From IMG/VR virus record IMGVR_UViG_3300022719_000039, positions 18,935 to 82,934 of that record: a stretch of 64,000 nt of DNA, one strand, 5' to 3'. Both the position numbers and the translations under genes were made by a program. The stretch is from a virus. Shown here one piece after another: positions 23,853 to 61,743 of this stretch; within the stretch, counting starts at the first letter, position 1, and each line of letters begins with the position of its first letter. The notes beneath the pieces were generated by a model. The model had not been told where the DNA came from, ran no database searches, and saw nothing but the letters and a program-made list of their open reading frames with translations.

Positions 23853-25316
23853 TTATTTTTCAAAAATTAATTCACCATTTGAAGTAGGGTCTTCTACCTG
23901 AATACCAACTTCTGCAAGAAGTTCCACTCTATATCCATCAATACCAGAAGCTCTCATAGTATTCATATCTTTTGCTATACCACCCATAGGATCAGTAGAA
24001 CCAGCTACATGCCACATTGCATTTTCGCTATCTGCTAGTGCTACTTTCCTTATATTAGACTTACCATTCTTTCTACCAAAGTTAAGAATAGTAAACCTAT
24101 AAGATTCTACAGGCTTTTTAGTAACAGGGTGTAAATCTCTATTATGAACAAAATCATCATAAGGAGGAAATTCTTTAACTGTTAACTCTATACCATTTAG
24201 GAACTTTACAGTTTTAAAGGCTCCCTGAAACGTTAACTCTTGTCCTTTACCACTTATAAAGGTTCCATTATCGGTAACTGTAATACCTCTGGCATTTTGT
24301 TCTTCTCTTATCGCTCTATCAAATTCCCTCATACCCATCTTACCTGTTAAAGCTACAAACTTGTGATCTCCACCCCATGCATTAGCAGAATAAGATAGTT
24401 TTAACAAAAAGTCATCCAATAATTGATAAGTAAGATTTGTATAGAACTGCACATTTGCAGGACTTATTTGTTGCCTGAAACCAGCTCCATGATATACAGG
24501 AAACCCTGATTGTCCTCTAATAGCAATATCTGTTTCAGCTACAGGCTTGCTATTAAAAGTTGTATAAACAAGCGATCTATCAATTTCCCGCATCCATTGT
24601 GATAAAGCAGTCCATTCAGCCGTCTTTGTCCATAACTTTGTGGATTTTTTAGGATCATTAGGATCACGCATTTCAATCACCATTACTTCCTTAGCAGCAT
24701 TTCTTGATACTGAATAATGCTTCCTAAGTGTGGTAAGTTGATTGATTAATGACATCGGAGTTGAATAATGAGTTCCTCCACCTTTAGAACTATATTCCTC
24801 AACGGTTGAATACATTTTACTGAACTTAGCACCCTTTTTAATTAATACAGGGTCTAAAAACTCTTGCGTTACATCAGTAAGAACTACAGTATAAACCCAC
24901 ATATTACCATCCTGATACTCATTAACTACACGAACAAATGAACCATCATCAGCACGTAAATTATCCGAGGCTTCAAATATGTTATCTTCCAGAAATATCC
25001 TGAAAGGTGTTTGAGAAATACCGGGAGTACTACCACCATCAGGACTATCCTGTGCTATACTAATAGCTCTTTCTGTTTGCCCATGAACATCCCACTTATA
25101 CTGCCTATTAGTAATAAACCTTGTATTCCCTATTCCACCTGTAAGTAGATTTAAAACATTACTTCCAGTCATACCAAAAGCATAAGCTAAAACACCATCC
25201 ATTTTTACAGGTTCGGTAAGATAAGCATTAGCTAATTGATTGGTAGTAGTTAAACCACTAAAGTCTCTGGTTGTGTAAAGTTGTAAAGGACTAATATCCT
25301 CTTTAAAAGTCGCCAT
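23853..25316 (-). CDS. Major capsid protein (crAss-type HK97 fold), 487 aa
   Basis: FSGLTTTNQLANAY N-terminus, QYKWDV, TTLRKHYSVS, and a C-terminal DGYRVELLAEVGIQVEDP. Gene order portal-scaffold-MCP. Confidence 0.88.
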   Translation of the reverse strand: MATFKEDISPLQLYTTRDFSGLTTTNQLANAYLTEPVKMDGVLAYAFGMTGSNVLNLLTGGIGNTRFITNRQYKWDVHGQTERAISIAQDSPDGGSTPGISQTPFRIFLEDNIFEASDNLRADDGSFVRVVNEYQDGNMWVYTVVLTDVTQEFLDPVLIKKGAKFSKMYSTVEEYSSKGGGTHYSTPMSLINQLTTLRKHYSVSRNAAKEVMVIEMRDPNDPKKSTKLWTKTAEWTALSQWMREIDRSLVYTTFNSKPVAETDIAIRGQSGFPVYHGAGFRQQISPANVQFYTNLTYQLLDDFLLKLSYSANAWGGDHKFVALTGKMGMREFDRAIREEQNARGITVTDNGTFISGKGQELTFQGAFKTVKFLNGIELTVKEFPPYDDFVHNRDLHPVTKKPVESYRFTILNFGRKNGKSNIRKVALADSENAMWHVAGSTDPMGGIAKDMNTMRASGIDGYRVELLAEVGIQVEDPTSNGELIFEK

Positions 25317-42100: not shown

Positions 42101-42824
42101 ATATAAAAGAGACAGATTCAAAGCTATTATACTATCAGAACTAACTCCTAGAATTAAGAAAGAAGTCTATAACCTTGTTAAAACTGCTTCAGACAGCGAT
42201 AAGGTTGATGGACATAAGAACTGGGAATTTGGTGCAGAGTTTGATAGAAAAGGGAGAGGTTCTGCACTTAATTGGAGCCTTTATGATGTGGGAAGCGATA
42301 TACATAACCGTAAAAGGTTGATTGTAATACAAGTAAGGCAGTTTATTAAAAATCCTAAACGACAGTTTGCAAATATTAGAAAGTCCTACTTTTTAATAGG
42401 CCGTAATGAAGATAATAGTGTTTTTGCACACCCTGTAGAAAGCAGGGTAATACATCATGCAATAAGTAAAGGTAATGATGTAATAAAATCTGTACAAGAT
42501 TGGATTTTTGGATGTGATTATACAAAAATCCAAAGGCAGGGGGACATAGCAGTAATACCTGTAAGAAAGAACCAACTTAAAGGGGATATATATGATAATA
42601 ATGAATATAAAATAAAACCAGAGAATGGTTCTGACAATCACTTTTTGCAGGCTTATGAAATAATGATAGATGAAAGCAAACATTGCCAAACTGTATTTGC
42701 AAATAATCCTTTTTTGCAGCACTTACCGGGTGTTCATCCTGATATAAAAGCAAAAGGATGGCATAAAATAATAATAGGAAAAAGGGCTAACTTTTATGAT
42801 TTTGCAGCACCTACTATTGATTAA
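42084..42824 (+). CDS. Hypothetical phage protein (RQGD / His-motif family)
   Basis: 246 aa with RQGDIAVIP, NHFL and LQHLPGVHP. Confidence 0.65.
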   Translation: MKTKSKYKRDRFKAIILSELTPRIKKEVYNLVKTASDSDKVDGHKNWEFGAEFDRKGRGSALNWSLYDVGSDIHNRKRLIVIQVRQFIKNPKRQFANIRKSYFLIGRNEDNSVFAHPVESRVIHHAISKGNDVIKSVQDWIFGCDYTKIQRQGDIAVIPVRKNQLKGDIYDNNEYKIKPENGSDNHFLQAYEIMIDESKHCQTVFANNPFLQHLPGVHPDIKAKGWHKIIIGKRANFYDFAAPTID

Positions 42825-54997: not shown

Positions 54998-55255
54998 ATG
55001 GAAAATAACTTTATAGGCGGTGGAACATTTCGATTTGGAAAATATAAGGGAAAGTCATTCATTGATGTAGCCTTATCAGACGAGGCCGATTATTTTATCT
55101 GGCTTTGGGAAAGATCGGAAAAAGGTAAATTATATTTAGATTCAGATTTACATGAATTTATTAAGAAAAACTTGTCGAGATTACGTCAAGAAGCAAAGAG
55201 ATGCAAAGAAGCCTATGAAGCCGATAGGTACGACGAGCTTATGAGAGACTGGTAA
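54998..55255 (+). CDS. Small protein with an FGKYKG motif (exodeoxyribonuclease X C-terminal-like)
   Basis: FRFGKYKGKSFIDV....DYFIWL. Confidence 0.65.
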   Translation: MENNFIGGGTFRFGKYKGKSFIDVALSDEADYFIWLWERSEKGKLYLDSDLHEFIKKNLSRLRQEAKRCKEAYEADRYDELMRDW

Positions 55256-55287
55256 AGTAGAAATTAAAGACAAAAACGTAGAAAATT

Positions 55288-56250
55288 ATGACAAAAGTTA
55301 AAGAACAGGCCAGAAAAAGGCAAAAGGGCCTAGATGCTATTACCAAGGAAATACTACCTACTACTATTTGGAAATATGATGGGCATAGAATTGTTCCTAA
55401 AAGGAATAATGGAGCCATAGAATTAAAAAATATAGAAGCCTTAAAACCGGTTACCAATATGAAGGTAACCGGTAATTACAGAGAAAGAAAAGAGCAGATT
55501 AATAAATTAAAAAGTAAGGTCGATGATAGAGAAAGCATAATTAAAGCTGTTCTACAGGATCAAAATAGACTTATGGCTTATAAGAGAAGCACAGACATTC
55601 TTGATGAAATGACATTAGAATTTCTTGAACATAGAGTATATGAGTCTAAGGAGATATTAAAGAAAAAAGATAAACAAGTTCAAAAGCAGTTAGACCTTGT
55701 AGGCCATCCTATAGTTAGTATTGCCAATAACGTTGCAGGTATTGGGAAGATGACTATTGCATATATGCTTGTATATGTTGATATAAGTAAATGCAATTAT
55801 GCAGGAAACTTATGGAGCTATGTTGGCATAGTCAAGCCTTCTTATGAAAGGTATTCAAAAGGAGAAAGTAGCGGAGGATGTAAACCACTTAGGGTGGCTC
55901 TTCATAGGACTGCTACTTCAATTATAAGAATGAGGGGCAGAACTGAAATGAATAAATATATAGAGGTTTATGATAGAGAAAAGCTAAGGTTATCTAAGTC
56001 TAGACAGATAACTAAATCCAGAAACAGAAAAGGAGAACTAAAAGAAATGGCTTGGAAAGATACTATGAAAAGCCATAGACACGGTGCAGCTATAAGGAAG
56101 GTTATTAAACATATCTGTGCTGACTGGTGGTTTGTACATAGAACTTTAGAAGGTCTGCCTACACCAGAACCTTATGTCATGGATTATTTAGGACATAAAA
56201 ACTGGATAAGACCAGAAGAAAGAGGATGGAAAATACACCCAATAAAATGA
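55288..56250 (+). CDS. TIGR-associated (Tas)-like protein: N-terminal HNH-like motif, coiled coil, IS110/Nop RNA-binding domain
   Basis: VAGIGKMTIAYML, NLWSYVG, GGCKPLRVAL, YIEVYDREK and RHGAAIRKVIK match the IS110 C-terminal/Nop domain. No DEDD RuvC domain is visible. N-terminal DGHRIVPKRNNG...KNIEAL.PVTN. Immediately followed by a dual-spacer array. Confidence 0.8.
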   Translation: MTKVKEQARKRQKGLDAITKEILPTTIWKYDGHRIVPKRNNGAIELKNIEALKPVTNMKVTGNYRERKEQINKLKSKVDDRESIIKAVLQDQNRLMAYKRSTDILDEMTLEFLEHRVYESKEILKKKDKQVQKQLDLVGHPIVSIANNVAGIGKMTIAYMLVYVDISKCNYAGNLWSYVGIVKPSYERYSKGESSGGCKPLRVALHRTATSIIRMRGRTEMNKYIEVYDREKLRLSKSRQITKSRNRKGELKEMAWKDTMKSHRHGAAIRKVIKHICADWWFVHRTLEGLPTPEPYVMDYLGHKNWIRPEERGWKIHPIK

Positions 56251-56270
56251 ACTTAATTAAAAGGGAGTTA

Positions 56271-56564
56271 ATGAATTATTAAAGATGATTAGTAGTCAAT
56301 AAACTGAAATGAATTAAAAAACCAAAAATAGTAGTCAAATAACCTAAATGAATTAATAGCCAAAATATTAATCATAACCCTTAAATGAATTAATTATAAA
56401 AAGTTTCAAAAAGAGTTAATGAATTAAAATACAATAATTTTAATATCAGGGAATGAATTAAAGGAAAGAAGAATACATGAGAAAAAAATGAATTAAATAA
56501 AATAAGTACTATAAAACTTAAATGAATTAAAGATGACAAAATCTCAAATTACTAAAATGAATTA
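56271..56564 (+). ncRNA. TIGR-like array block 1 (8 complete units plus terminal edge repeat)
   Basis: ATGAATTA at 56271, 56309, 56348, 56385, 56419, 56453, 56488, 56522 and 56557. Each unit is edge, 9 nt, loop starting with A and ending TCA/ACA/TTA/CTA, 9 nt, A. Confidence 0.85.
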
Positions 56565-56576
56565 AAACAGGAGATT

Positions 56577-56753
56577 ATGAGACAAATCCTTGCTTTCTTT
56601 GATAGAAACTACAACCGATTGTTTAATAATAAAAAATGTATTAAGGTTAATTTCCACGAAGATGAGTTTGAATATCAAGACATACTATTTGATGGTAAGG
56701 AATACTTTAGATACTTAGGTAAAGGTTGGTTAGTTAAAAAAGTTTTAATTTAA
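56577..56753 (+). CDS. Small ORF (58 aa) between array blocks
   Basis: MRQILAFFDRNYNRLF...YLGKGWLVKKVLI*, preceded by AGGAG. Confidence 0.55.
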   Translation: MRQILAFFDRNYNRLFNNKKCIKVNFHEDEFEYQDILFDGKEYFRYLGKGWLVKKVLI

Positions 56754-56762
56754 AAGTATTAA

Positions 56763-56867
56763 ACGAATTAAGGCTAGTAACTTTTCAAGAGAAAATAATA
56801 AATTAGTGCCTCCAATTTTTCAATAGAAACTAATGAATTAAAATAGTGAAAAAAATCAAAAAAAGCG
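56763..56867 (+). ncRNA. TIGR-like array block 2 (3 units)
   Basis: ACGAATTA 56763, ATAAATTA 56798, ATGAATTA 56833. 35-nt period, loops ending TCA. Confidence 0.75.
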
Positions 56868-56921
56868 GCTCAATTTTGTTAAACTAAAAAAAAATGAAAG
56901 CAAAAGAAAAAAAGAAGAAAA

Positions 56922-57182
56922 ATGGACATTAAAAAAAGGAAGATATGGTGTATTGTAGAGAGAAAAAACTTTAGTAAAGATTCAGCATCATGGGAAGAAC
57001 ATCTGATAAAAGCTAATGTTGACCATTATGAAGCGGAACAATATATTAATTCTACTAAAAACAAAAAAAGAGTCCTGTTTGCCTATGCTCGTCATCCTAT
57101 AAGTGGAACAATGGATATGATGTGGAACTTACGATATGTAGATAGTGAAAAGACGGTTAAGAAGTATGCGAAGCTTAAATAA
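56922..57182 (+). CDS. Hypothetical protein
   Basis: Co-oriented ORF. Confidence 0.55.
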   Translation: MDIKKRKIWCIVERKNFSKDSASWEEHLIKANVDHYEAEQYINSTKNKKRVLFAYARHPISGTMDMMWNLRYVDSEKTVKKYAKLK

Positions 57183-57338
57183 AATTCAATTATCACAAGA
57201 AAGGACGATGTTAACTAAAAAAGGAACATATAGTAGTTCTGAAATTCTTTCTATAGAAACTATTGAATCTTGCAGATCATACTATCGTTTAAGAAATACA
57301 GACAACCGTATTATTCACTTTAAATTAACATAAGATAA

Positions 57339-57767
57339 ATGAAAAAAGTTATTCCAGAATATAAAATAGAAGAAAACGGGGATATTGTTATAGATATAGA
57401 ACCTAAAGCAAACCATAGACCAAGATTCCAGAAGAATACTGGCACAGCCTATATACCAAATGACTACAAAAGATATGTTGAGCTTTTAAAAAGAGCCTTT
57501 AAAGATGCAAACATTCCCAAGAAAGAATGGATAGGTTTAGACATAATTTTTTACCTGAAAACAAATAAAGACCATTTTATACCGCATAGGAAGAAACCAG
57601 ACTGGGATAATCTGGCTAAAGGTGTTATGGATGCTTTAGTTAAAGCTAGGATTGTAAAGGATGATTGTACTATTTCTTATGGTTCAGTATATAAAGTTAA
57701 TAGTGTTAAAAATAAAGTCGTAGTTAAGTTATTACAGTTACATGAGTTGCCTTCCTTTATCAACTAA
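57339..57767 (+). CDS. rusA: RusA-like Holliday junction resolvase
   Basis: PKANHRPR, KKPDWDNLAKGVMDAL, DDCTI. Confidence 0.88.
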   Translation: MKKVIPEYKIEENGDIVIDIEPKANHRPRFQKNTGTAYIPNDYKRYVELLKRAFKDANIPKKEWIGLDIIFYLKTNKDHFIPHRKKPDWDNLAKGVMDALVKARIVKDDCTISYGSVYKVNSVKNKVVVKLLQLHELPSFIN

Positions 57768-57776
57768 TAAAGAATT

Positions 57777-57977
57777 ATGCATATAAAAGACTTAAAATCA
57801 TATTTAGAGGATGGAGAAGGTTCAATAGTTTATAATAAGCTGGAAGGAAAAAGATTGCAGGTTTATAACCTAGAAAGGAATACAGTTATGTTTCATGAAG
57901 TTGGAGATATTAATAAAAGAGCAGGGGCAGTAAATTATCCTTTAGATACTAAATACTATAAGTTAATAAAGAAATGA
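57777..57977 (+). CDS. Hypothetical protein
   Basis: ORF with ATGA coupling to the ligase. Confidence 0.5.
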   Translation: MHIKDLKSYLEDGEGSIVYNKLEGKRLQVYNLERNTVMFHEVGDINKRAGAVNYPLDTKYYKLIKK

Positions 57978-59188
57978 TGTATGCACTAACCAAGAATGGA
58001 AATATAAAGACATATAAAGTTTCCGTAGATGATAATACCATTCTAAGAGAATCAGGACTACTGAATGGTAAAATAACTACTAAAGAAGAAGTTATAACCA
58101 AGCCTAAAAATATAGGTAAGTCTAACGAATTAAGCCCTAATGAAGTAGCAAAAAGCAAAGCTAAACATTATACTTACCGAGCTAAGGTAGATGGTTATAA
58201 GTCTATAGATGATATAATTACAATTATAAATGAAGGCAAGTCTGAAGTAATAGGAACTGATAAGTATGTAGGAACTGAAGAGTATATATTAAAATATTAC
58301 AGAGATAACTATAAATATAACTCCGATAATTGTAGAAGACCTAAACCGATGCTTGCTAATAAAATAAGAAATGATATATTTGATAGAAACCAATCAGTAT
58401 TTGTGCAAAGAAAGTATAATGGTATAAGATGTATGGCTGCACTTATCAATTATAATATATTTCTTTTTTCCAGAGATGGAAAGTTATTCAATATTCCTCA
58501 TATCACTGAAGAATTAAAATCATACTTTAAGCCCAAAGATAATAAAAGGTTTTTCCTAGATGGAGAAATATATATTCATGGTAAAAAGCTACAAGATATA
58601 ATTTCACTTGCAAAAGCACCAGATATGTTTGAAACACTTAACTTAGAGTTTCATGTATTTGATATGGTTTTTGGTAATCATGAGACAGGGGAAGGAAATA
58701 AGAGATGGTTTGAAAGATTAGTAGAACTGACAAAACTATTTAAGAATAGAATTCAAGATAAAGTAAAACTAGTTGATACAGTCGAAGTATTTAATCAAGA
58801 CGAATTGTCAGAGATACATAATAAATTTACCAATGAGGGATATGAAGGAAGTATCCTACGTCTAGACAAAGGTCTTTATGAATTCGGATATAGAAGTAAT
58901 TACCTTCTAAAGTTAAAATCAACTTTGAAAGAGATAGTTAAAATAGAAAATGTAGTTGATACAGATAAAGAAAAAGGTATAGCCTTGTTTGTATGCAGAG
59001 ATAAAAGGGGTAACTTATTCAATTTAAGACCAAATGGTAGTGTAGGCAACAAAGTAGAATGGTTTAACCAAGCAAATACAGGTGGGCCTAAAGACCCAAC
59101 AGGAAAAGAAATAGAAATAACTTTTCATGAACACACTAAATATGGAATACCTTTTCATATAACTAAAACAAAGATAATATGGGATTAA
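57974..59188 (+). CDS. ATP-dependent DNA ligase
   Basis: PMLA, QRKYNGIRC, FSRDGK, LDGEIY, FHVFD, EGYEGSILR, LLKLK, GIPFH. Confidence 0.92.
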   Translation: MMYALTKNGNIKTYKVSVDDNTILRESGLLNGKITTKEEVITKPKNIGKSNELSPNEVAKSKAKHYTYRAKVDGYKSIDDIITIINEGKSEVIGTDKYVGTEEYILKYYRDNYKYNSDNCRRPKPMLANKIRNDIFDRNQSVFVQRKYNGIRCMAALINYNIFLFSRDGKLFNIPHITEELKSYFKPKDNKRFFLDGEIYIHGKKLQDIISLAKAPDMFETLNLEFHVFDMVFGNHETGEGNKRWFERLVELTKLFKNRIQDKVKLVDTVEVFNQDELSEIHNKFTNEGYEGSILRLDKGLYEFGYRSNYLLKLKSTLKEIVKIENVVDTDKEKGIALFVCRDKRGNLFNLRPNGSVGNKVEWFNQANTGGPKDPTGKEIEITFHEHTKYGIPFHITKTKIIWD

Positions 59189-59454
59189 CTTTTTATAATA
59201 TTAAATTCCTCGATAAATTTAACATGTTTTCTTTAGTAGACAGAGAAGATATAAAACAACTCAAGGCTGAAATATTTAATAATAACAAGGAAAGAAAAGA
59301 TAAATGTATAAAAGAAATTACTAAAATATCAGATAAGGATTACAGAGAGATTCTTTATATAGATAACTTTGTATTTCTAAGAATAGGAAGTAATTATAGA
59401 ATTATAGGAATTGATAATGAAATAGTAAAAAAATGGAAACAACAGAACAAGTAA
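59179..59454 (+). CDS. Hypothetical protein
   Basis: Overlapping, co-oriented ORF. Confidence 0.45.
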   Translation: MGLTFYNIKFLDKFNMFSLVDREDIKQLKAEIFNNNKERKDKCIKEITKISDKDYREILYIDNFVFLRIGSNYRIIGIDNEIVKKWKQQNK

Positions 59455-60425
59455 AGTTATTAGATTATTACAAAAGACCTGAAATTTCAAAGAGTGATTT
59501 AGTCTTATTTAATACAGTAGGGCCTAACAAGTTTAACTTTATAAAACAGGAGCAGTTCCTAAGATTGGAAAGTTCTCCAATAGAGGAAAGTAAAAGTTTA
59601 AAGAAAGGTAAAGCTTTACATGCTGCTATACTTGAACCAAAAGTGTTTAAAGAATTTTATGTGCCTGTAGAATATGAAACACCTAAGTCACCGCAACAGA
59701 TAAAGTTTTGTAATTTAGTAGTAGACAAGTTATCAATGCAAGTTCCATTGGATAAGTCTATATTGGAATCTGCAAAAGAATCTTATTCCAGTAAGAATAA
59801 GTCTAATAGTGATATGTATAGTACGGGCATAGGTTTATATGAGCATTTAGAAAGTTACATTGATTTTCTAAAATTTTCAAAGACTGATGAGATTGTTATT
59901 CTAACTAAGAAAGAGCATGAATACATATTGGGAGCTAAGGACGCTTTAGAAAAAGATCCGGTTACTAAAGATATTCTATATCATAAGCTTGAGGAATCTT
60001 TTGTAGAGGAAGAGATTTACTGGACAAGAGGTAATATGGACTTGAAGTCCAAGTTAGACAAGCTTGATATAGATTTTAGTAAGAAATATGCCGTGCTTAC
60101 TGATCTTAAAACTACAAAAGCACCAAATCCCAGTAGTTTTATTTGGGAAGTAAACAGATATAAAATACACTGGCAGGTTGATTACTATAAACATGCTATT
60201 ACTTGGAAATATCCAGAGCTGGAAAAGATATACAATAGAATAGTAACAGTAGAATTACAACCTCCTTTTGATCATTGTGTGTATAGTGTTGGTAGAGAAA
60301 AACTGCAAACTGCTTTTATAGAGTGGAGTAAAGTTCTGGAAGAGTTAGAATGGCACTATATAAACAATGTTTGGCAGGACAAAGATTACTATGAGAATAA
60401 GCTTGTAATAATAGATGAAGAATAA
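59433..60425 (+). CDS. PD-(D/E)XK exonuclease (RecE/ExoVIII-like, DUF3799-like)
   Basis: ISKSDL, GKALHAAILEP, KSKLDKL, TDLKTT, QVDYY. Confidence 0.85.
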   Translation: METTEQVKLLDYYKRPEISKSDLVLFNTVGPNKFNFIKQEQFLRLESSPIEESKSLKKGKALHAAILEPKVFKEFYVPVEYETPKSPQQIKFCNLVVDKLSMQVPLDKSILESAKESYSSKNKSNSDMYSTGIGLYEHLESYIDFLKFSKTDEIVILTKKEHEYILGAKDALEKDPVTKDILYHKLEESFVEEEIYWTRGNMDLKSKLDKLDIDFSKKYAVLTDLKTTKAPNPSSFIWEVNRYKIHWQVDYYKHAITWKYPELEKIYNRIVTVELQPPFDHCVYSVGREKLQTAFIEWSKVLEELEWHYINNVWQDKDYYENKLVIIDEE

Positions 60426-60437
60426 ATTAATCATCTA

Positions 60438-60540
60438 ACGAATTAATATAAAGAAAAATACAATAGTTGGCAATGAATTAAGAAAACAAAGAGTCAAAGA
60501 AAAACAATGAATTATGAGAACCAATTTTCAATACAATTAA
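60438..60540 (+). ncRNA. TIGR-like array block 3 (3 units, remote from the tas-like gene)
   Basis: ACGAATTA 60438, ATGAATTA 60473 and 60507. Same 9-nt/loop/9-nt layout, followed by degenerate ATGTTTAT at 60541. Confidence 0.78.
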
Positions 60541-60571
60541 ATGTTTATTTTAAACTAAAACTAATAAAATT

Positions 60572-60970
60572 ATGAAAAAGCTAGCATTATTAATTATCGC
60601 ATTTGTATTCTTTAGTGTTGTAGAAGCCCAGAACACAGGACAAATAAACGATGATGTGTTTAAACCTTCTAATAACATACTTCTCTCCAATGAGGTAATG
60701 ATCTTTAAAGGTGGTAAGTATCAAGGTAGTATTGTTATAGAGAGAATAGATTACGGGTTTTCAGAACAAATAAATATATTCGATGGAATATTTGATGACA
60801 ATATTAAAAGGAATGAGGATGCTTATTACGGCATTGATAGCTATAACAATAATAATTATAATAACACGAACTATAACTATGGCAGCAAAGGAGAACAAAA
60901 AAGACAAATAAATCCTTCTACTAACCCTGATTATAGACTAGCTGAAAGTTTGTTGAATTTAAGTAAATAA
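60572..60970 (+). CDS. Secreted/periplasmic protein with a signal peptide and Asn-rich tract
   Basis: MKKLALLIIAFVFFSVVEA|Q, a Bacteroidota-style SPI cleavage site. Confidence 0.65.
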   Translation: MKKLALLIIAFVFFSVVEAQNTGQINDDVFKPSNNILLSNEVMIFKGGKYQGSIVIERIDYGFSEQINIFDGIFDDNIKRNEDAYYGIDSYNNNNYNNTNYNYGSKGEQKRQINPSTNPDYRLAESLLNLSK

Positions 60971-60972
60971 CA

Positions 60973-61200
60973 ATGTACTTTAAGGTCGATCTTAATGCCA
61001 AAAGGTTTGAAGAATTGATAGAAGACTTAAAGAGGAATAGTATAGAAGAAGCTCAACTACGCAAAGTTGTTGAGCTTCTTCTTAAAAAGTTTTCAGAGGA
61101 ATTTTTTAGTTACTATACAGACATAACAACTAAAGGTTTGCCAGAAGATAATCTCAAGGTAGTGAATGATATGATTAAAAATCATAAACCCCTTTCTTAA
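60973..61200 (+). CDS. Hypothetical protein
   Basis: Co-oriented ORF. Confidence 0.5.
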   Translation: MYFKVDLNAKRFEELIEDLKRNSIEEAQLRKVVELLLKKFSEEFFSYYTDITTKGLPEDNLKVVNDMIKNHKPLS

Positions 61201-61321
61201 TGTCTTCAATAGCCCTTTCGATCTGGATGAACTTTTGTAGCTTTTCTAACTGCTTCAAAAGTTTTCCATCCAAACTAAAGTTACTTACTTTCCTTACAGG
61301 AGTTTTGATTTTAGTCAACAT
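61175..61321 (-). CDS. Small ribbon-helix-helix-like ORF, 48 aa
   Basis: Manual translation MLTKIKTPVRKVSNFSLDGKLLKQLEKLQKFIQIERAIEDIKKGVYDF. Confidence 0.4.
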   Translation of the reverse strand: MLTKIKTPVRKVSNFSLDGKLLKQLEKLQKFIQIERAIEDIKKGVYDF

Positions 61322-61443
61322 AACACAACAAAATTATGAAATAAATTTTACTTAAACAATAAAAATAATTCTAATATTTGTTATATTCACAATAGCAACT
61401 ATAACGGCATAAACAGTTGTTAAATACTTAAATAACATGAAAA

Positions 61444-61743
61444 TTGTCAAGAATTATTTGGGGAGAAGAAAATGCTAAGAGGCGGTTTTTGTCTCCCGAA
61501 GAGAAAAAAAAGAAAAATAAGTACAAAAGATTGAAAAGTAAGTATAAATTAATATCCTTTGACTATAAAGAATTAATTAAGGAAACAGAAAAGGTTATAG
61601 TAGTACAGTGTAAGTACTCTTTGATGCCTACCTTTGTAAATAAAAAATTCATAGCTAAAATCAATAGGGTTAGCAAGAAGATAACTATACCTATGACCTT
61701 ATATAGATATTTATTTTATGACCATGAACAATTTTACGAGTAA
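61444..61743 (+). CDS. Hypothetical basic protein
   Basis: Co-oriented ORF. Confidence 0.45.
   Translation: MSRIIWGEENAKRRFLSPEEKKKKNKYKRLKSKYKLISFDYKELIKETEKVIVVQCKYSLMPTFVNKKFIAKINRVSKKITIPMTLYRYLFYDHEQFYE

What the first reader, a model, noticed from the sequence alone, without database searches (positions are those of the whole stretch)
60438..60548. Orphan satellite array 4 kb downstream with the same unit grammar
Seen: between the RecE-like exonuclease and a secreted protein lie three units (atataaaga/atagttggc, agaaaacaa/aagaaaaac, tgagaacca/atacaatta). They have the same edge repeat and 9+9 layout, and start with the same ACGAATTA variant as block 2. This independent recurrence argues against chance in AT-rich DNA. 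Inference: guide cassettes are dispersed across the replication operon and act in trans.
Basis: partly seen in the sequence, partly recalled or inferred. Interest (0 to 1): 0.8.

Follow-up and report, generated by a model that had tools for sequence, protein, structure and literature searches.

The report
Satellite TIGR guide-RNA mini-array in phage
The three short repeats are most likely a small extra set of guide-RNA genes for this phage's own TIGR-Tas RNA-guided DNA-binding protein, placed six genes away from that protein's gene; it is an ordinary member of a recently described system in a slightly unusual position.

Summary
At 60437-60543 (+ strand) three 34-35-nt units fill the gap between an exonuclease VIII-like gene and a gene with a signal-peptide-like start. 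Each unit starts with the edge repeat AAYGAATTA of the TIGR array that directly follows a TasH-like tas gene 4.2 kb upstream (55288-56250; E 3.4e-67 to SpTasH). Two consecutive edge pairs at unit spacing are far beyond chance: 0.005 pairs per shuffled genome, 10 observed, all in blocks 1 and 3. A model built only from blocks 1-2 recovers block 3 as its best new hit (E 9.8e-6). The best reading is a satellite TIGR mini-array, co-transcribed with replication genes, cut by the conserved Tas Y/H dyad and used in trans. It is not a true orphan, because tas lies in the same operon. No target was found in the phage's own genome. Expression and processing are untested. Same-repeat arrays separated from tas by genes occur in 3 of 102 related TasH-like loci (L025, L039, L224). 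This scan has already noted more widely dispersed TIGR arrays in other phages. It is a new member of a known kind, of modest interest.

The parts
55288..56250 (+). tas gene: 320-aa TasH-like Tas protein (Nop domain, coiled coil, degenerate N-terminal HNH)
   Evidence: phmmer against PDB: SpTasH 21kl_A at E 3.4e-67, residues 30-315 aligned to 27-308. Pfam Transposase_20 at E 1.2e-4. Y296 and H303, which align with the SpTasH Y289/H296 processing dyad, are invariant in 24 homologues. The residue aligned to SpTasH H54 is N57.
56270..56565 (+). Block 1: main TIGR array, 8 units of 34-39 nt plus a ninth full edge repeat
   Evidence: ATGAATTA at 56271, 56309, 56348, 56385, 56419, 56453, 56488, 56522 and 56557.
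56577..56753 (+). 58-aa ORF with an AGGAG ribosome-binding site, lying between blocks 1 and 2
   Evidence: no Pfam or PHROG family.
56762..56870 (+). Block 2: 3 units with edges AACGAATTA, AATAAATTA and AATGAATTA; the last unit has no recognisable 3' edge
   Evidence: aligns in register with block 3.
56879..56889 (+). Trailer motif TTAAACTAAAA after block 2
   Evidence: One of only 2 exact copies in the window; the other follows block 3.
59433..60425 (+). Exonuclease VIII (RecE)-like PD-(D/E)XK nuclease gene; its stop is 12 nt before block 3
   Evidence: phrog_412 at E 5.4e-25; Pfam DUF3799 at E 1.3e-8.
60437..60471 (+). Block 3 unit 1 (35 nt): edge AACGAATTA, spacer A ATATAAAG(A), loop ending ACA, spacer B ATAGTTGG(C)
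60472..60505 (+). Block 3 unit 2 (34 nt): edge AATGAATTA, spacer A AGAAAACA, loop AAGAGTCA, spacer B AAGAAAAAC
   Evidence: The model built from blocks 1-2 only scores 60472-60514 at 23.1 bits, E 9.8e-6, the best non-training hit.
60506..60543 (+). Block 3 unit 3 (34 nt) plus a 3'-truncated terminal edge AATG (60540-60543)
   Evidence: model hit 60519-60543 at 10 bits, E 0.14. Arrays ending in a 3'-truncated edge are described in PMC12045711, section 4.
60550..60560 (+). Trailer motif TTAAACTAAAA after block 3, 12 nt before the next start codon
60572..60970 (+). 132-aa ORF with a signal-peptide-like N-terminus; no family match

Best explanation
Block 3 is a three-unit satellite TIGR (tandem interspaced guide RNA) mini-array belonging to this crAss-like phage's own TasH-like Tas protein.

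Shown by sequence:
- It has the same edge repeat, the same AA...YCA loop position, the same strand and the same 34-35-nt unit as the tas-adjacent array.
- Its spacers are unique.
- It ends in a 3'-truncated edge.

Inferred mechanism:
- Only 12 nt separate it from the exonuclease stop codon, so it is transcribed by read-through as part of the + strand replication and recombination operon.
- Tas dimers bind the edge and loop motifs.
- The conserved Y/H dyad in the Tas C-terminal tail cuts inside the edge repeats and releases two fully flanked tigRNAs. A third tigRNA has only a truncated 3' edge.
- The histidine whose H54A change inactivates the SpTasH nuclease is asparagine here. The likely outcome is therefore binding or repression rather than efficient cleavage.
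- The targets are not in the phage's own genome. They are presumed to lie in the host or in competing elements.
For: - Tas identity: E 3.4e-67 to SpTasH over residues 30-315.
- Processing dyad: Y296 and H303 are invariant in 24 homologues. Their role is taken from passages of PMC13421893.
- Chance excluded: 10 edge pairs at 33-39 nt against 0.005 per shuffle.
- Cross-validation: a sequence-only model built from 10 units of blocks 1-2 gives block 3 unit 2 as its best non-training hit, at 23.1 bits and E 9.8e-6.
- Family grammar: the SpTIGR edge AGCGAGCCA and the edge here, AATGAATTA, differ only by transitions. L012 (Tas 47% identical) has the identical edge with 36-nt units, and it uses AGCGAATTA-type variants like the ACGAATTA seen here.
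- The spacers of block 3 match no other spacer better than 7 of 9.
- Blocks 2 and 3 align in register and share an exact 11-nt trailer.
- Parallels elsewhere: L039 has six same-repeat mini-arrays between genes, including a gp32-like SSB gene. L025 and L224 each have an array separated by one gene.
- Faure et al. report that minimal arrays of 1-3 units are processed if the edges are complete (PMC12045711, section 5).
- No Rfam family matches and there is no significant RNA fold (z 0.15), as expected for dual-repeat tigRNAs.
- In crAss-like phage cr118_1 the exonuclease gene overlaps the next gene, so the 146-nt gap here is an addition to a compact backbone.
Against: - There are no expression, processing or binding data.
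- No close relative of this phage was available, so conservation of block 3 could not be tested. The nearest Tas is 54% identical.
- The loop repeat is short (8-9 nt) and poorly conserved, and the units are 34-35 nt rather than the canonical 36.
- The last unit has only a 4-nt terminal edge.
- No terminator-like site follows the block.
- No target was found. Matches of A+rc(B) or rc(A)+B in the 82.9-kb genome are no commoner than for mismatched spacer pairings: 0 exact and 1-2 one-mismatch hits, against about 0.9 in controls.
- The spacers are 56% A, close to simple A-rich intergenic sequence.
- The bare three-edge pattern is frequent in a large viral collection (119 or more stretches) and nearly always lacks a Tas gene in the stored stretch.
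Confidence: 0.8

Rival explanations
1. Block 3 is a non-functional relic. On this view it is a piece of the array, or a copy of the block 2 module, moved by recombination when the RusA-ligase-exonuclease genes were inserted or rearranged. It may be transcribed but contributes no useful guides.
For: - Blocks 2 and 3 share a first-edge variant, the number of units and an exact 11-nt trailer, which suggests a common origin by duplication.
- The last unit has a truncated edge.
- The spacers are A-rich (56% A) and have no detectable target.
- The loop motif is weak.
Against: - All three edges are intact: two match the block 1 consensus 8 of 8, and one is the variant also used in block 2.
- The spacers differ completely from those of block 2, so any duplication is old. 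The repeats have nonetheless been kept.
- Truncated terminal edges are normal in TIGR arrays (PMC12045711, section 4).
- Gene-separated arrays recur in L025, L039 and L224.
Confidence: 0.12
2. The units serve mainly as Tas-dependent RNA-processing sites. Cutting the polycistronic transcript between the exonuclease gene and the downstream gene would set the stability or translation of the flanking mRNAs. Guide production would be secondary.
For: - The array fills the whole intergenic gap, from 12 nt after one gene to 28 nt before the next.
- The Y/H RNase dyad is conserved.
- Blocks 2 and 3 are each followed by the same 11-mer just upstream of a start codon.
- The mini-arrays of L039 also sit in intergenic gaps and end in a conserved hairpin trailer.
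Against: - No data address this, and no published precedent was seen in the sections I read.
- The unique spacers and the complete motif sets flanking each spacer are what guides need; cleavage sites alone would not need them.
Confidence: 0.05
3. The block is a chance repeat in AT-rich DNA, or a set of protein-binding iterons or a promoter element unrelated to Tas.
For:
- Three ATGAATTA copies at this spacing occur in at least 119 viral contigs, many from giant viruses.
- One sigma-70-like match lies on the minus strand at 60473-60445, but such matches are at chance level across the region: 34 found against 33.9 expected.
Against: - Edge pairs at unit spacing are expected 0.005 times per genome. 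The only places they occur are next to tas and here.
- The block shares its strand, loop offset and edge variant with blocks 1-2.
Confidence: 0.03

Closest known systems
SpTIGR-TasH of Salicola phage CGphi29 (Faure et al. 2025, PMC12045711; PDB 21kl, 9w03; PMC13421893)
   Same: - The Tas protein is homologous over nearly its full length (E 3.4e-67, about 42% identity).
- The Y/H processing dyad is conserved.
- The array is a dual-repeat array on the tas strand.
- The edge repeat has the same pattern: AGCGAGCCA there and AATGAATTA here, differing by transitions only.
- Loops start with AA and end in YCA or CCA.
   Different: - SpTIGR, as I read it in L001 (tas plus 3 kb either side), is one contiguous array directly after tas with strict 36-nt units, a well conserved 10-nt loop and a GC-rich terminator-like hairpin.
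- Here there are three blocks separated by a 58-aa gene and then by at least six ORFs, the units are 34-39 nt and the loops are degenerate.
- The H54 and H58 equivalents are N57 and T61.
IMG/VR viral contig locus L039 (TasH-like, 42% identical Tas)
   Same: - It has several 2-5-unit mini-arrays with one repeat pair.
- They lie in intergenic gaps on the tas strand, among replication and recombination genes (gp32-like SSB, DUF2828).
- They extend up to 2.9 kb from tas.
- Each ends in a truncated edge plus a shared trailer.
   Different: - It has six arrays rather than three.
- Units are strictly 36 nt and the repeats are GC-rich.
- The trailer is a clear hairpin (GAAGGYTGRYTTC); here the shared trailer is an AT-rich 11-mer with no convincing stem.
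Dual-repeat TIGR arrays as catalogued by TIGRFinder (Xu et al. 2026 preprint, 10.64898/2026.09.09.750476)
   Same: The preprint describes arrays as upstream, downstream, flanking or inside tas, and speaks of a 'flexible genomic location' (section 5).
   Different: - The text I read does not mention arrays separated from tas by several unrelated genes. The words orphan, dispersed and multiple arrays are absent.
- Its Fig. 1d and the supplements, which could show such arrays, were not visible to me.
CRISPR arrays remote from cas loci
   Same: Guide arrays can sit away from the effector genes and still be used in trans.
   Different: The repeat architecture, the protein family (Nop rather than Cas) and the dual-strand split-spacer targeting are all unrelated, and no adaptation genes are known for TIGR.

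Membership tests
Dual-repeat TIGR array (Faure et al. 2025) | Association with a gene for a Nop-domain Tas protein | tested here: met
   tas lies at 55288-56250, 4.2 kb upstream on the same strand in the same genome, and matches SpTasH at E 3.4e-67. It is not adjacent: at least six ORFs and two other blocks lie between.
Dual-repeat TIGR array (Faure et al. 2025) | Conserved edge repeat recurring about every 36 nt | tested here: met
   AAYGAATTA at 60437, 60472 and 60506, plus a truncated AATG at 60540. Spacings are 35, 34 and 34 nt. Chance expectation is 0.005 pairs per genome.
Dual-repeat TIGR array (Faure et al. 2025) | A second, alternating loop repeat of 8-12 nt | tested here: inconclusive
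   The loops are AAAAATACA, AAGAGTCA and AATTTTCA. Only the leading AA and the final YCA or ACA are shared, and the length is 8-9 nt. The same weak loop is seen in blocks 1-2.
Dual-repeat TIGR array (Faure et al. 2025) | Two variable spacers of about 8-9 nt per unit | tested here: met
   All six spacers of block 3 are unique, with at most 7 of 9 identity to any other spacer. The choice between 8 and 9 nt is not resolved.
Dual-repeat TIGR array (Faure et al. 2025) | [quoted passage not shown] | tested here: inconclusive
   Edges start with AA(T/C)G and end in TTA. Loops start with AA and end in TCA or ACA. This is similar but not identical, and assigning the boxes rests on analogy with SpTIGR and L012, not on a structure.
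Dual-repeat TIGR array (Faure et al. 2025) | Array ends in a 3'-truncated edge followed by a terminator | tested here: inconclusive
   A truncated edge AATG is present at 60540-60543. No terminator-like site lies in 60426-60571, and the fold z-score is 0.15.
Dual-repeat TIGR array (Faure et al. 2025) | Transcribed and processed into about 36-nt tigRNAs bound by Tas | not testable with these tools
   This needs small-RNA sequencing or a pull-down. Only the processing dyad (Y296/H303) is shown to be conserved.
TasH (HNH-bearing Tas) | N-terminal HNH domain with its catalytic histidine (SpTasH H54) | tested here: not met
   H54 aligns with N57 and H58 with T61. H54A is the nuclease-dead mutant in preprint 10.64898/2026.08.11.744272 (passages). 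The window protein has H33 where SpTasH has D30, so an HNN-type site cannot be excluded.

The most novel reading that the evidence does not exclude
TIGR mini-arrays may be self-contained cassettes (first-edge variant, 2-3 units, truncated edge, shared trailer) that spread into intergenic gaps of phage replication operons. There, Tas-dependent cutting at the edge repeats would both make guides and split the polycistronic mRNA, coupling guide supply to the expression of neighbouring genes. The genes caught between arrays would mark the edge repeats as recombination points for cargo. Examples are the 58-aa ORF and the RusA-ligase-exonuclease segment here, a lipoprotein-like gene in L224 and a gp32-like gene in L039.
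Probability: 0.12. Interest if true: 0.6.

Novelty: new member of a known kind. Interest (0 to 1): 0.33.

Why it matters
- Surveys of TIGR-Tas systems look for arrays around tas. A complete phage genome with three blocks of one array family, one of them at least six ORFs away, shows that guide counts taken only next to tas can be too low.
- Small arrays of 2-3 units in intergenic gaps should be looked for across the whole genome.
- This places a TasH-like system with an altered HNH site in a crAss-like phage, and therefore probably in a phage of Bacteroidota.
- The gain is incremental. The kind of element is known, the distance is only 4.2 kb, and this scan has already noted much more scattered TIGR arrays in other phages (those notes were not checked here).

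Tried and rejected
1. Close relatives for a conservation test. A single-protein scan of IMG/VR with Tas and with the exonuclease, and blastn of 55288-61000 against phage records, all found nothing. The nearest exonuclease homologues in phage records are 25-28% identical. A site-by-site comparison of block 3 was therefore impossible.

2. Self-targeting. I tested A+rc(B) and rc(A)+B with 9+9 and 8+8 spacers, gaps of 0-2 and up to 3 mismatches against the whole 82.9-kb genome. Nothing exceeded nonsense arrangements or 20 permuted A/B pairings. I derived the A+rc(B) orientation from the stated 8-nt 3' overhangs and the 'C-5 rule', and tested both orientations anyway.

3. Targets in large collections. 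I did not try this. A 16-17-mer is expected tens of times by chance in collections of this size, by my own rough estimate, and Xu et al. make the same point.

4. Scan of IMG/VR for three ATGAATTA copies at unit spacing. Many come from giant-virus contigs. Among the stored stretches only L147 (the same contig as L012) had a full-length Tas; L135 and L120 gave 41-42-residue partial matches. The pattern alone is not diagnostic.

5. Flagged distal arrays that I rejected.
- L013 is a 12-nt tandem repeat.
- L046 is not a TIGR pattern.
- The 2-copy hits in L037, L040 and L012 (3697-3778) are chance.
- The distal arrays of L031 have different repeats and flank a second, divergent Tas (hhalign probability 98.3%). 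That locus has two systems, not satellites.

6. Other negative checks.
- The model hit at 42375-42410 (11.5 bits) has no edge repeats.
- Rfam found no family at E up to 1 in 55000-61500.
- Promoter-like and terminator-like sites are at chance level.
- There is no significant fold.
- The protein embedded in L224 and the 132-aa protein here are unrelated.

7. Literature. The searches, and term look-ups in PMC12045711 and 10.64898/2026.09.09.750476, found no description of gene-separated or 'orphan' dual-repeat arrays. One search returned only unrelated papers. Supplements and figures were not visible and may show such arrays.

Full report
WHAT IS THERE

The window is bases 18935-82934 of an 82,934-bp contig whose ends overlap by 127 bp. 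That makes it a complete, circularly permuted or terminally redundant phage genome, with 31.8% G+C. Its major capsid protein (23853-25316, minus strand) is 42-44% identical to those of crAss-like phages. From about 52 kb to the end of the window, every ORF of 100 aa or more lies on the + strand. They include:
- a DnaG-like primase
- a DUF932 protein
- RusA
- an ATP-dependent DNA ligase
- a PD-(D/E)XK nuclease that matches PHROG 412, 'exonuclease VIII'

THE TAS GENE AND THE THREE BLOCKS

ORF 55288-56250 encodes a 320-aa protein. It matches the solved TasH of Salicola phage CGphi29 at E 3.4e-67, with residues 30-315 aligned to 27-308.

The 8-mer ATGAATTA recurs nine times directly after this gene (56271 to 56557) at 34-39-nt spacing; this is block 1. 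A 58-aa ORF follows. Block 2 then has three units (56763 ACGAATTA, 56798 ATAAATTA, 56833 ATGAATTA).

The finding is block 3: 60438 ACGAATTA, then 60473 and 60507 ATGAATTA, with spacings of 35 and 34 nt. It occupies the 146-nt gap between the exonuclease stop codon (60425) and the start codon of a 132-aa ORF (60572). That ORF has a signal-peptide-like N-terminus by eye.

Each block 3 unit reads as follows: edge AAYGAATTA, about 8-9 variable nt, a short loop that begins AA and ends ACA or TCA, then about 9 variable nt. After the third unit comes AATG, the first four bases of another edge.

IS IT MORE THAN CHANCE?

Yes. Pairs of A[CT]GAATTA lying 33-39 nt apart occur 10 times on the + strand of the whole genome: 8 in block 1 and 2 in block 3. 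None occurs on the minus strand. In 200 dinucleotide-preserving shuffles the mean is 0.005 and the maximum is 1.

It gives 13 real hits, all inside the three blocks, but also a mean of 4.49 hits per shuffle (maximum 11).

As a cross-validation I aligned 10 units from blocks 1 and 2 only and built a sequence-only covariance model from them. I then scored every position of the window on both strands with the filters off.
- Block 3 unit 2 (60472-60514) scored 23.1 bits at E 9.8e-6. This is third overall and the best hit outside the training set.
- Unit 3 gave 10 bits (E 0.14).
- The first 19 nt of unit 1 gave 6.1 bits. The rest of unit 1 shares an edge with the unit 2 hit.
- The only other non-training hit below E 0.1 (42375-42410) has no edge repeats.

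WHAT KIND OF ELEMENT IS IT?

The architecture is that of a dual-repeat TIGR array as defined by Faure et al. (PMC12045711, sections 4-8 and 10 read). [quoted passage not shown] The RNA is processed into tigRNAs whose two spacers pair with opposite DNA strands.

Two comparisons anchor the grammar.
- The Salicola array (L001) reads RAGCGAGCCA, 8 nt, AAGACAACCA, 8 nt. The edge here, AATGAATTA, differs from AGCGAGCCA only by transitions.
- IMG/VR locus L012 has a Tas 47% identical to this one and exactly the edge AATGAATTA. Its units are strictly 36 nt (9+8+10+9). Its downstream array uses AGCGAATTA, AATGAACCA and AGTGAATTA as variants. The ACGAATTA that opens blocks 2 and 3 therefore lies within the family's allowed variation.

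These relatives suggest 8-nt spacers. I could not decide between the two.

THE TAS PROTEIN

The residues aligned to the SpTasH Y289/H296 dyad are Y296 and H303, and both are invariant in an alignment of 24 homologues. According to passages of PMC13421893 and section 13 of the Xu et al. preprint, this dyad cuts pre-tigRNA within the edge repeat.

In contrast, H54 of SpTasH aligns with N57 here and H58 with T61. The H54A mutant of SpTasH is nuclease-dead but still represses transcription (preprint 10.64898/2026.08.11.744272, passages). The window protein has H33 where SpTasH has D30, so an HNN-type active site cannot be ruled out.

An earlier follow-up note in this scan (e1-6143183) reached the same 'degenerate HNH' reading. 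Xu et al. (sections 12-13) show that nuclease-less or nuclease-dead Tas proteins act as RNA-guided repressors.

HOW BLOCK 3 MOST LIKELY WORKS

Sequence shows the following:
- the same strand, repeats and register as blocks 1-2
- unique spacers, with no other spacer more than 7 of 9 identical
- the flanking motifs on both sides of all six spacers, because the truncated terminal AATG still supplies the motif that follows spacer B of unit 3

The rest is inferred:
- Only 12 nt separate the exonuclease stop codon from the first edge. The block is therefore transcribed by read-through with the operon.
- Tas cuts at the edges.
- Two fully flanked tigRNAs, and a third with a short 3' edge, load onto Tas dimers.
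- These direct binding, or possibly weak cutting, at 16-18-bp sites.

Faure et al. state that arrays of one to three units are processed if the edges are complete. There is no Rfam match and no significant secondary structure (z 0.15). That fits unstructured dual-repeat guides. It does not fit a riboswitch, a terminator or a stem-loop tigRNA.

TARGETS

I searched the whole phage genome for spacer A followed by the reverse complement of spacer B, and for the opposite arrangement. I used 8- and 9-nt spacers with gaps of 0-2. There were no exact hits. There were 1-2 one-mismatch hits, against about 0.9 for permuted A/B pairings, and nonsense arrangements gave similar counts. There is thus no sign that the guides regulate the phage's own genes.

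The spacers are 56% A, against 41% A on the local + strand. This is unexplained.

ORIGIN AND PARALLELS

Blocks 2 and 3 align in register. Both start with ACGAATTA, both have three units, and both are followed by the exact 11-mer TTAAACTAAAA. Those are the only two exact copies in the window. Their spacers share nothing. This looks like a cassette that was duplicated long ago, or that is built to a common plan.

In the distant crAss-like phage cr118_1 the order is primase, ATPase, resolvase, a hypothetical gene, exonuclease and another hypothetical gene. The genes are tightly packed and the exonuclease overlaps the next gene. The tas gene and the array-filled gaps here therefore look like additions to a compact replication module.

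I also surveyed related loci. There were 102 TasH-like loci with distinct tas DNA from IMG/VR and metagenome contigs. Of these, 52 have at least 3 kb of flank on one side.
- Most arrays lie within about 200 bp of tas.
- Same-repeat arrays separated from tas by genes were verified by eye in three loci.
  - L039 has six mini-arrays over 5.3 kb, interleaved with a gp32-like SSB gene and a DUF2828 gene. Each ends in a truncated edge plus a conserved hairpin trailer.
  - L025 has one 219-aa ORF between the arrays.
  - L224 has a 142-aa ORF with a lipoprotein-like start between two arrays.
- Three other flagged loci were rejected. L013 and L046 are not TIGR arrays. L031 carries a second Tas with its own arrays.
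- My detector needed at least two units with both repeats, so single units would have been missed.

COMPARISON WITH WHAT IS KNOWN, AND NOVELTY

The element is a TIGR array and its protein is a TasH relative, so the kind is known (2025). Three things are slightly unusual: the gene-interrupted layout, the short and variable loops (units of 34-39 nt against a 'fixed 36 nt' in Xu et al.), and the crAss-like host genome.

The texts I read describe arrays upstream, downstream, flanking or inside tas, and three stem-loop sub-arrays separated by about 450 nt. They do not describe arrays several genes away. The words orphan, dispersed and multiple arrays are absent from both papers. Figures and supplements were not visible.

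Earlier notes of this scan report far more scattered TIGR arrays in other phages (e1-6026265, e1-6096012, e1-6003784, e1-5686227 and others). I did not check those, and they are not evidence for this case. They do mean that this layout is not new to the scan.

VERDICT

I put the confidence that it is a working satellite TIGR mini-array at about 0.8. The main rival is a non-functional relic, at about 0.12. Interest is modest, at 0.33.

Because of that, the three contigs listed for the identical Tas protein could not be compared. That comparison would have been the best computational test of selection on block 3.

Noticed in passing
window 56557-56762: The ninth edge repeat of block 1 runs straight into AAACAGGAGATT-ATG, the ribosome-binding site and start of a 58-aa ORF with no family match. 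Block 2 resumes 10 nt after its stop codon, so a small gene sits inside the array. L224 shows the same design, with a 142-aa ORF that has a lipoprotein-like start lying between two arrays.
   Followed up: partly
window 56879-56889 and 60550-60560: The exact 11-mer TTAAACTAAAA occurs only twice in the window. Each copy lies just after a three-unit block and 5-12 nt before an ATG. It might be a degenerate terminal edge (AACTAAAA against AACGAATT), a 5'-UTR element or a cassette trailer.
   Followed up: partly
L039 8590-13870: A 96.9-kb viral contig has six TIGR mini-arrays of 2-5 units in successive intergenic gaps around a TasH-like gene. Each ends in the truncated edge AAGCG plus a conserved trailer with a GAAGGYTGRYTTC hairpin.
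   Followed up: partly
L031 9850-16400: Two different TIGR-Tas systems lie 4 kb apart on one viral contig. One is TasH-like with AAGCGAGCCA and AAGAAACCCA repeats. The other is a divergent 377-aa Tas (hhalign probability 98.3%) flanked by arrays with TGCGAGCTA and TGAAATCTA repeats. A RecA-like gene lies between them.
   Followed up: partly
window 55288-55490: The residue aligned to the SpTasH nuclease-essential H54 is N57, and H58 aligns with T61. H33 replaces SpTasH D30. Homologue P0003 lacks all of these histidines. The HNH site seems to be decaying or changing in part of this clade.
   Followed up: partly
window 56270-56392: The first three units of block 1 are 38, 39 and 37 nt long because their loops are longer (ATTAGTAGTCA, AAATAGTAGTCA, AATATTAATCA). 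The other units are 34-35 nt. Published dual-repeat tigRNAs are described as a fixed 36 nt.
   Followed up: no
window blocks 1-3 (14 units): The spacers are 56% A, against 41% A on the local + strand. With opposite-strand pairing, this predicts targets of the form A-rich half followed by T-rich half.
   Followed up: no
window 60507-60575: Most edge repeats read ATG-AAT-TAA, a two-codon start-stop ORF. The last edge of block 3 instead opens a 22-codon frame that ends at the TGA overlapping the start codon of ORF 60572. This is probably coincidental.
   Followed up: no
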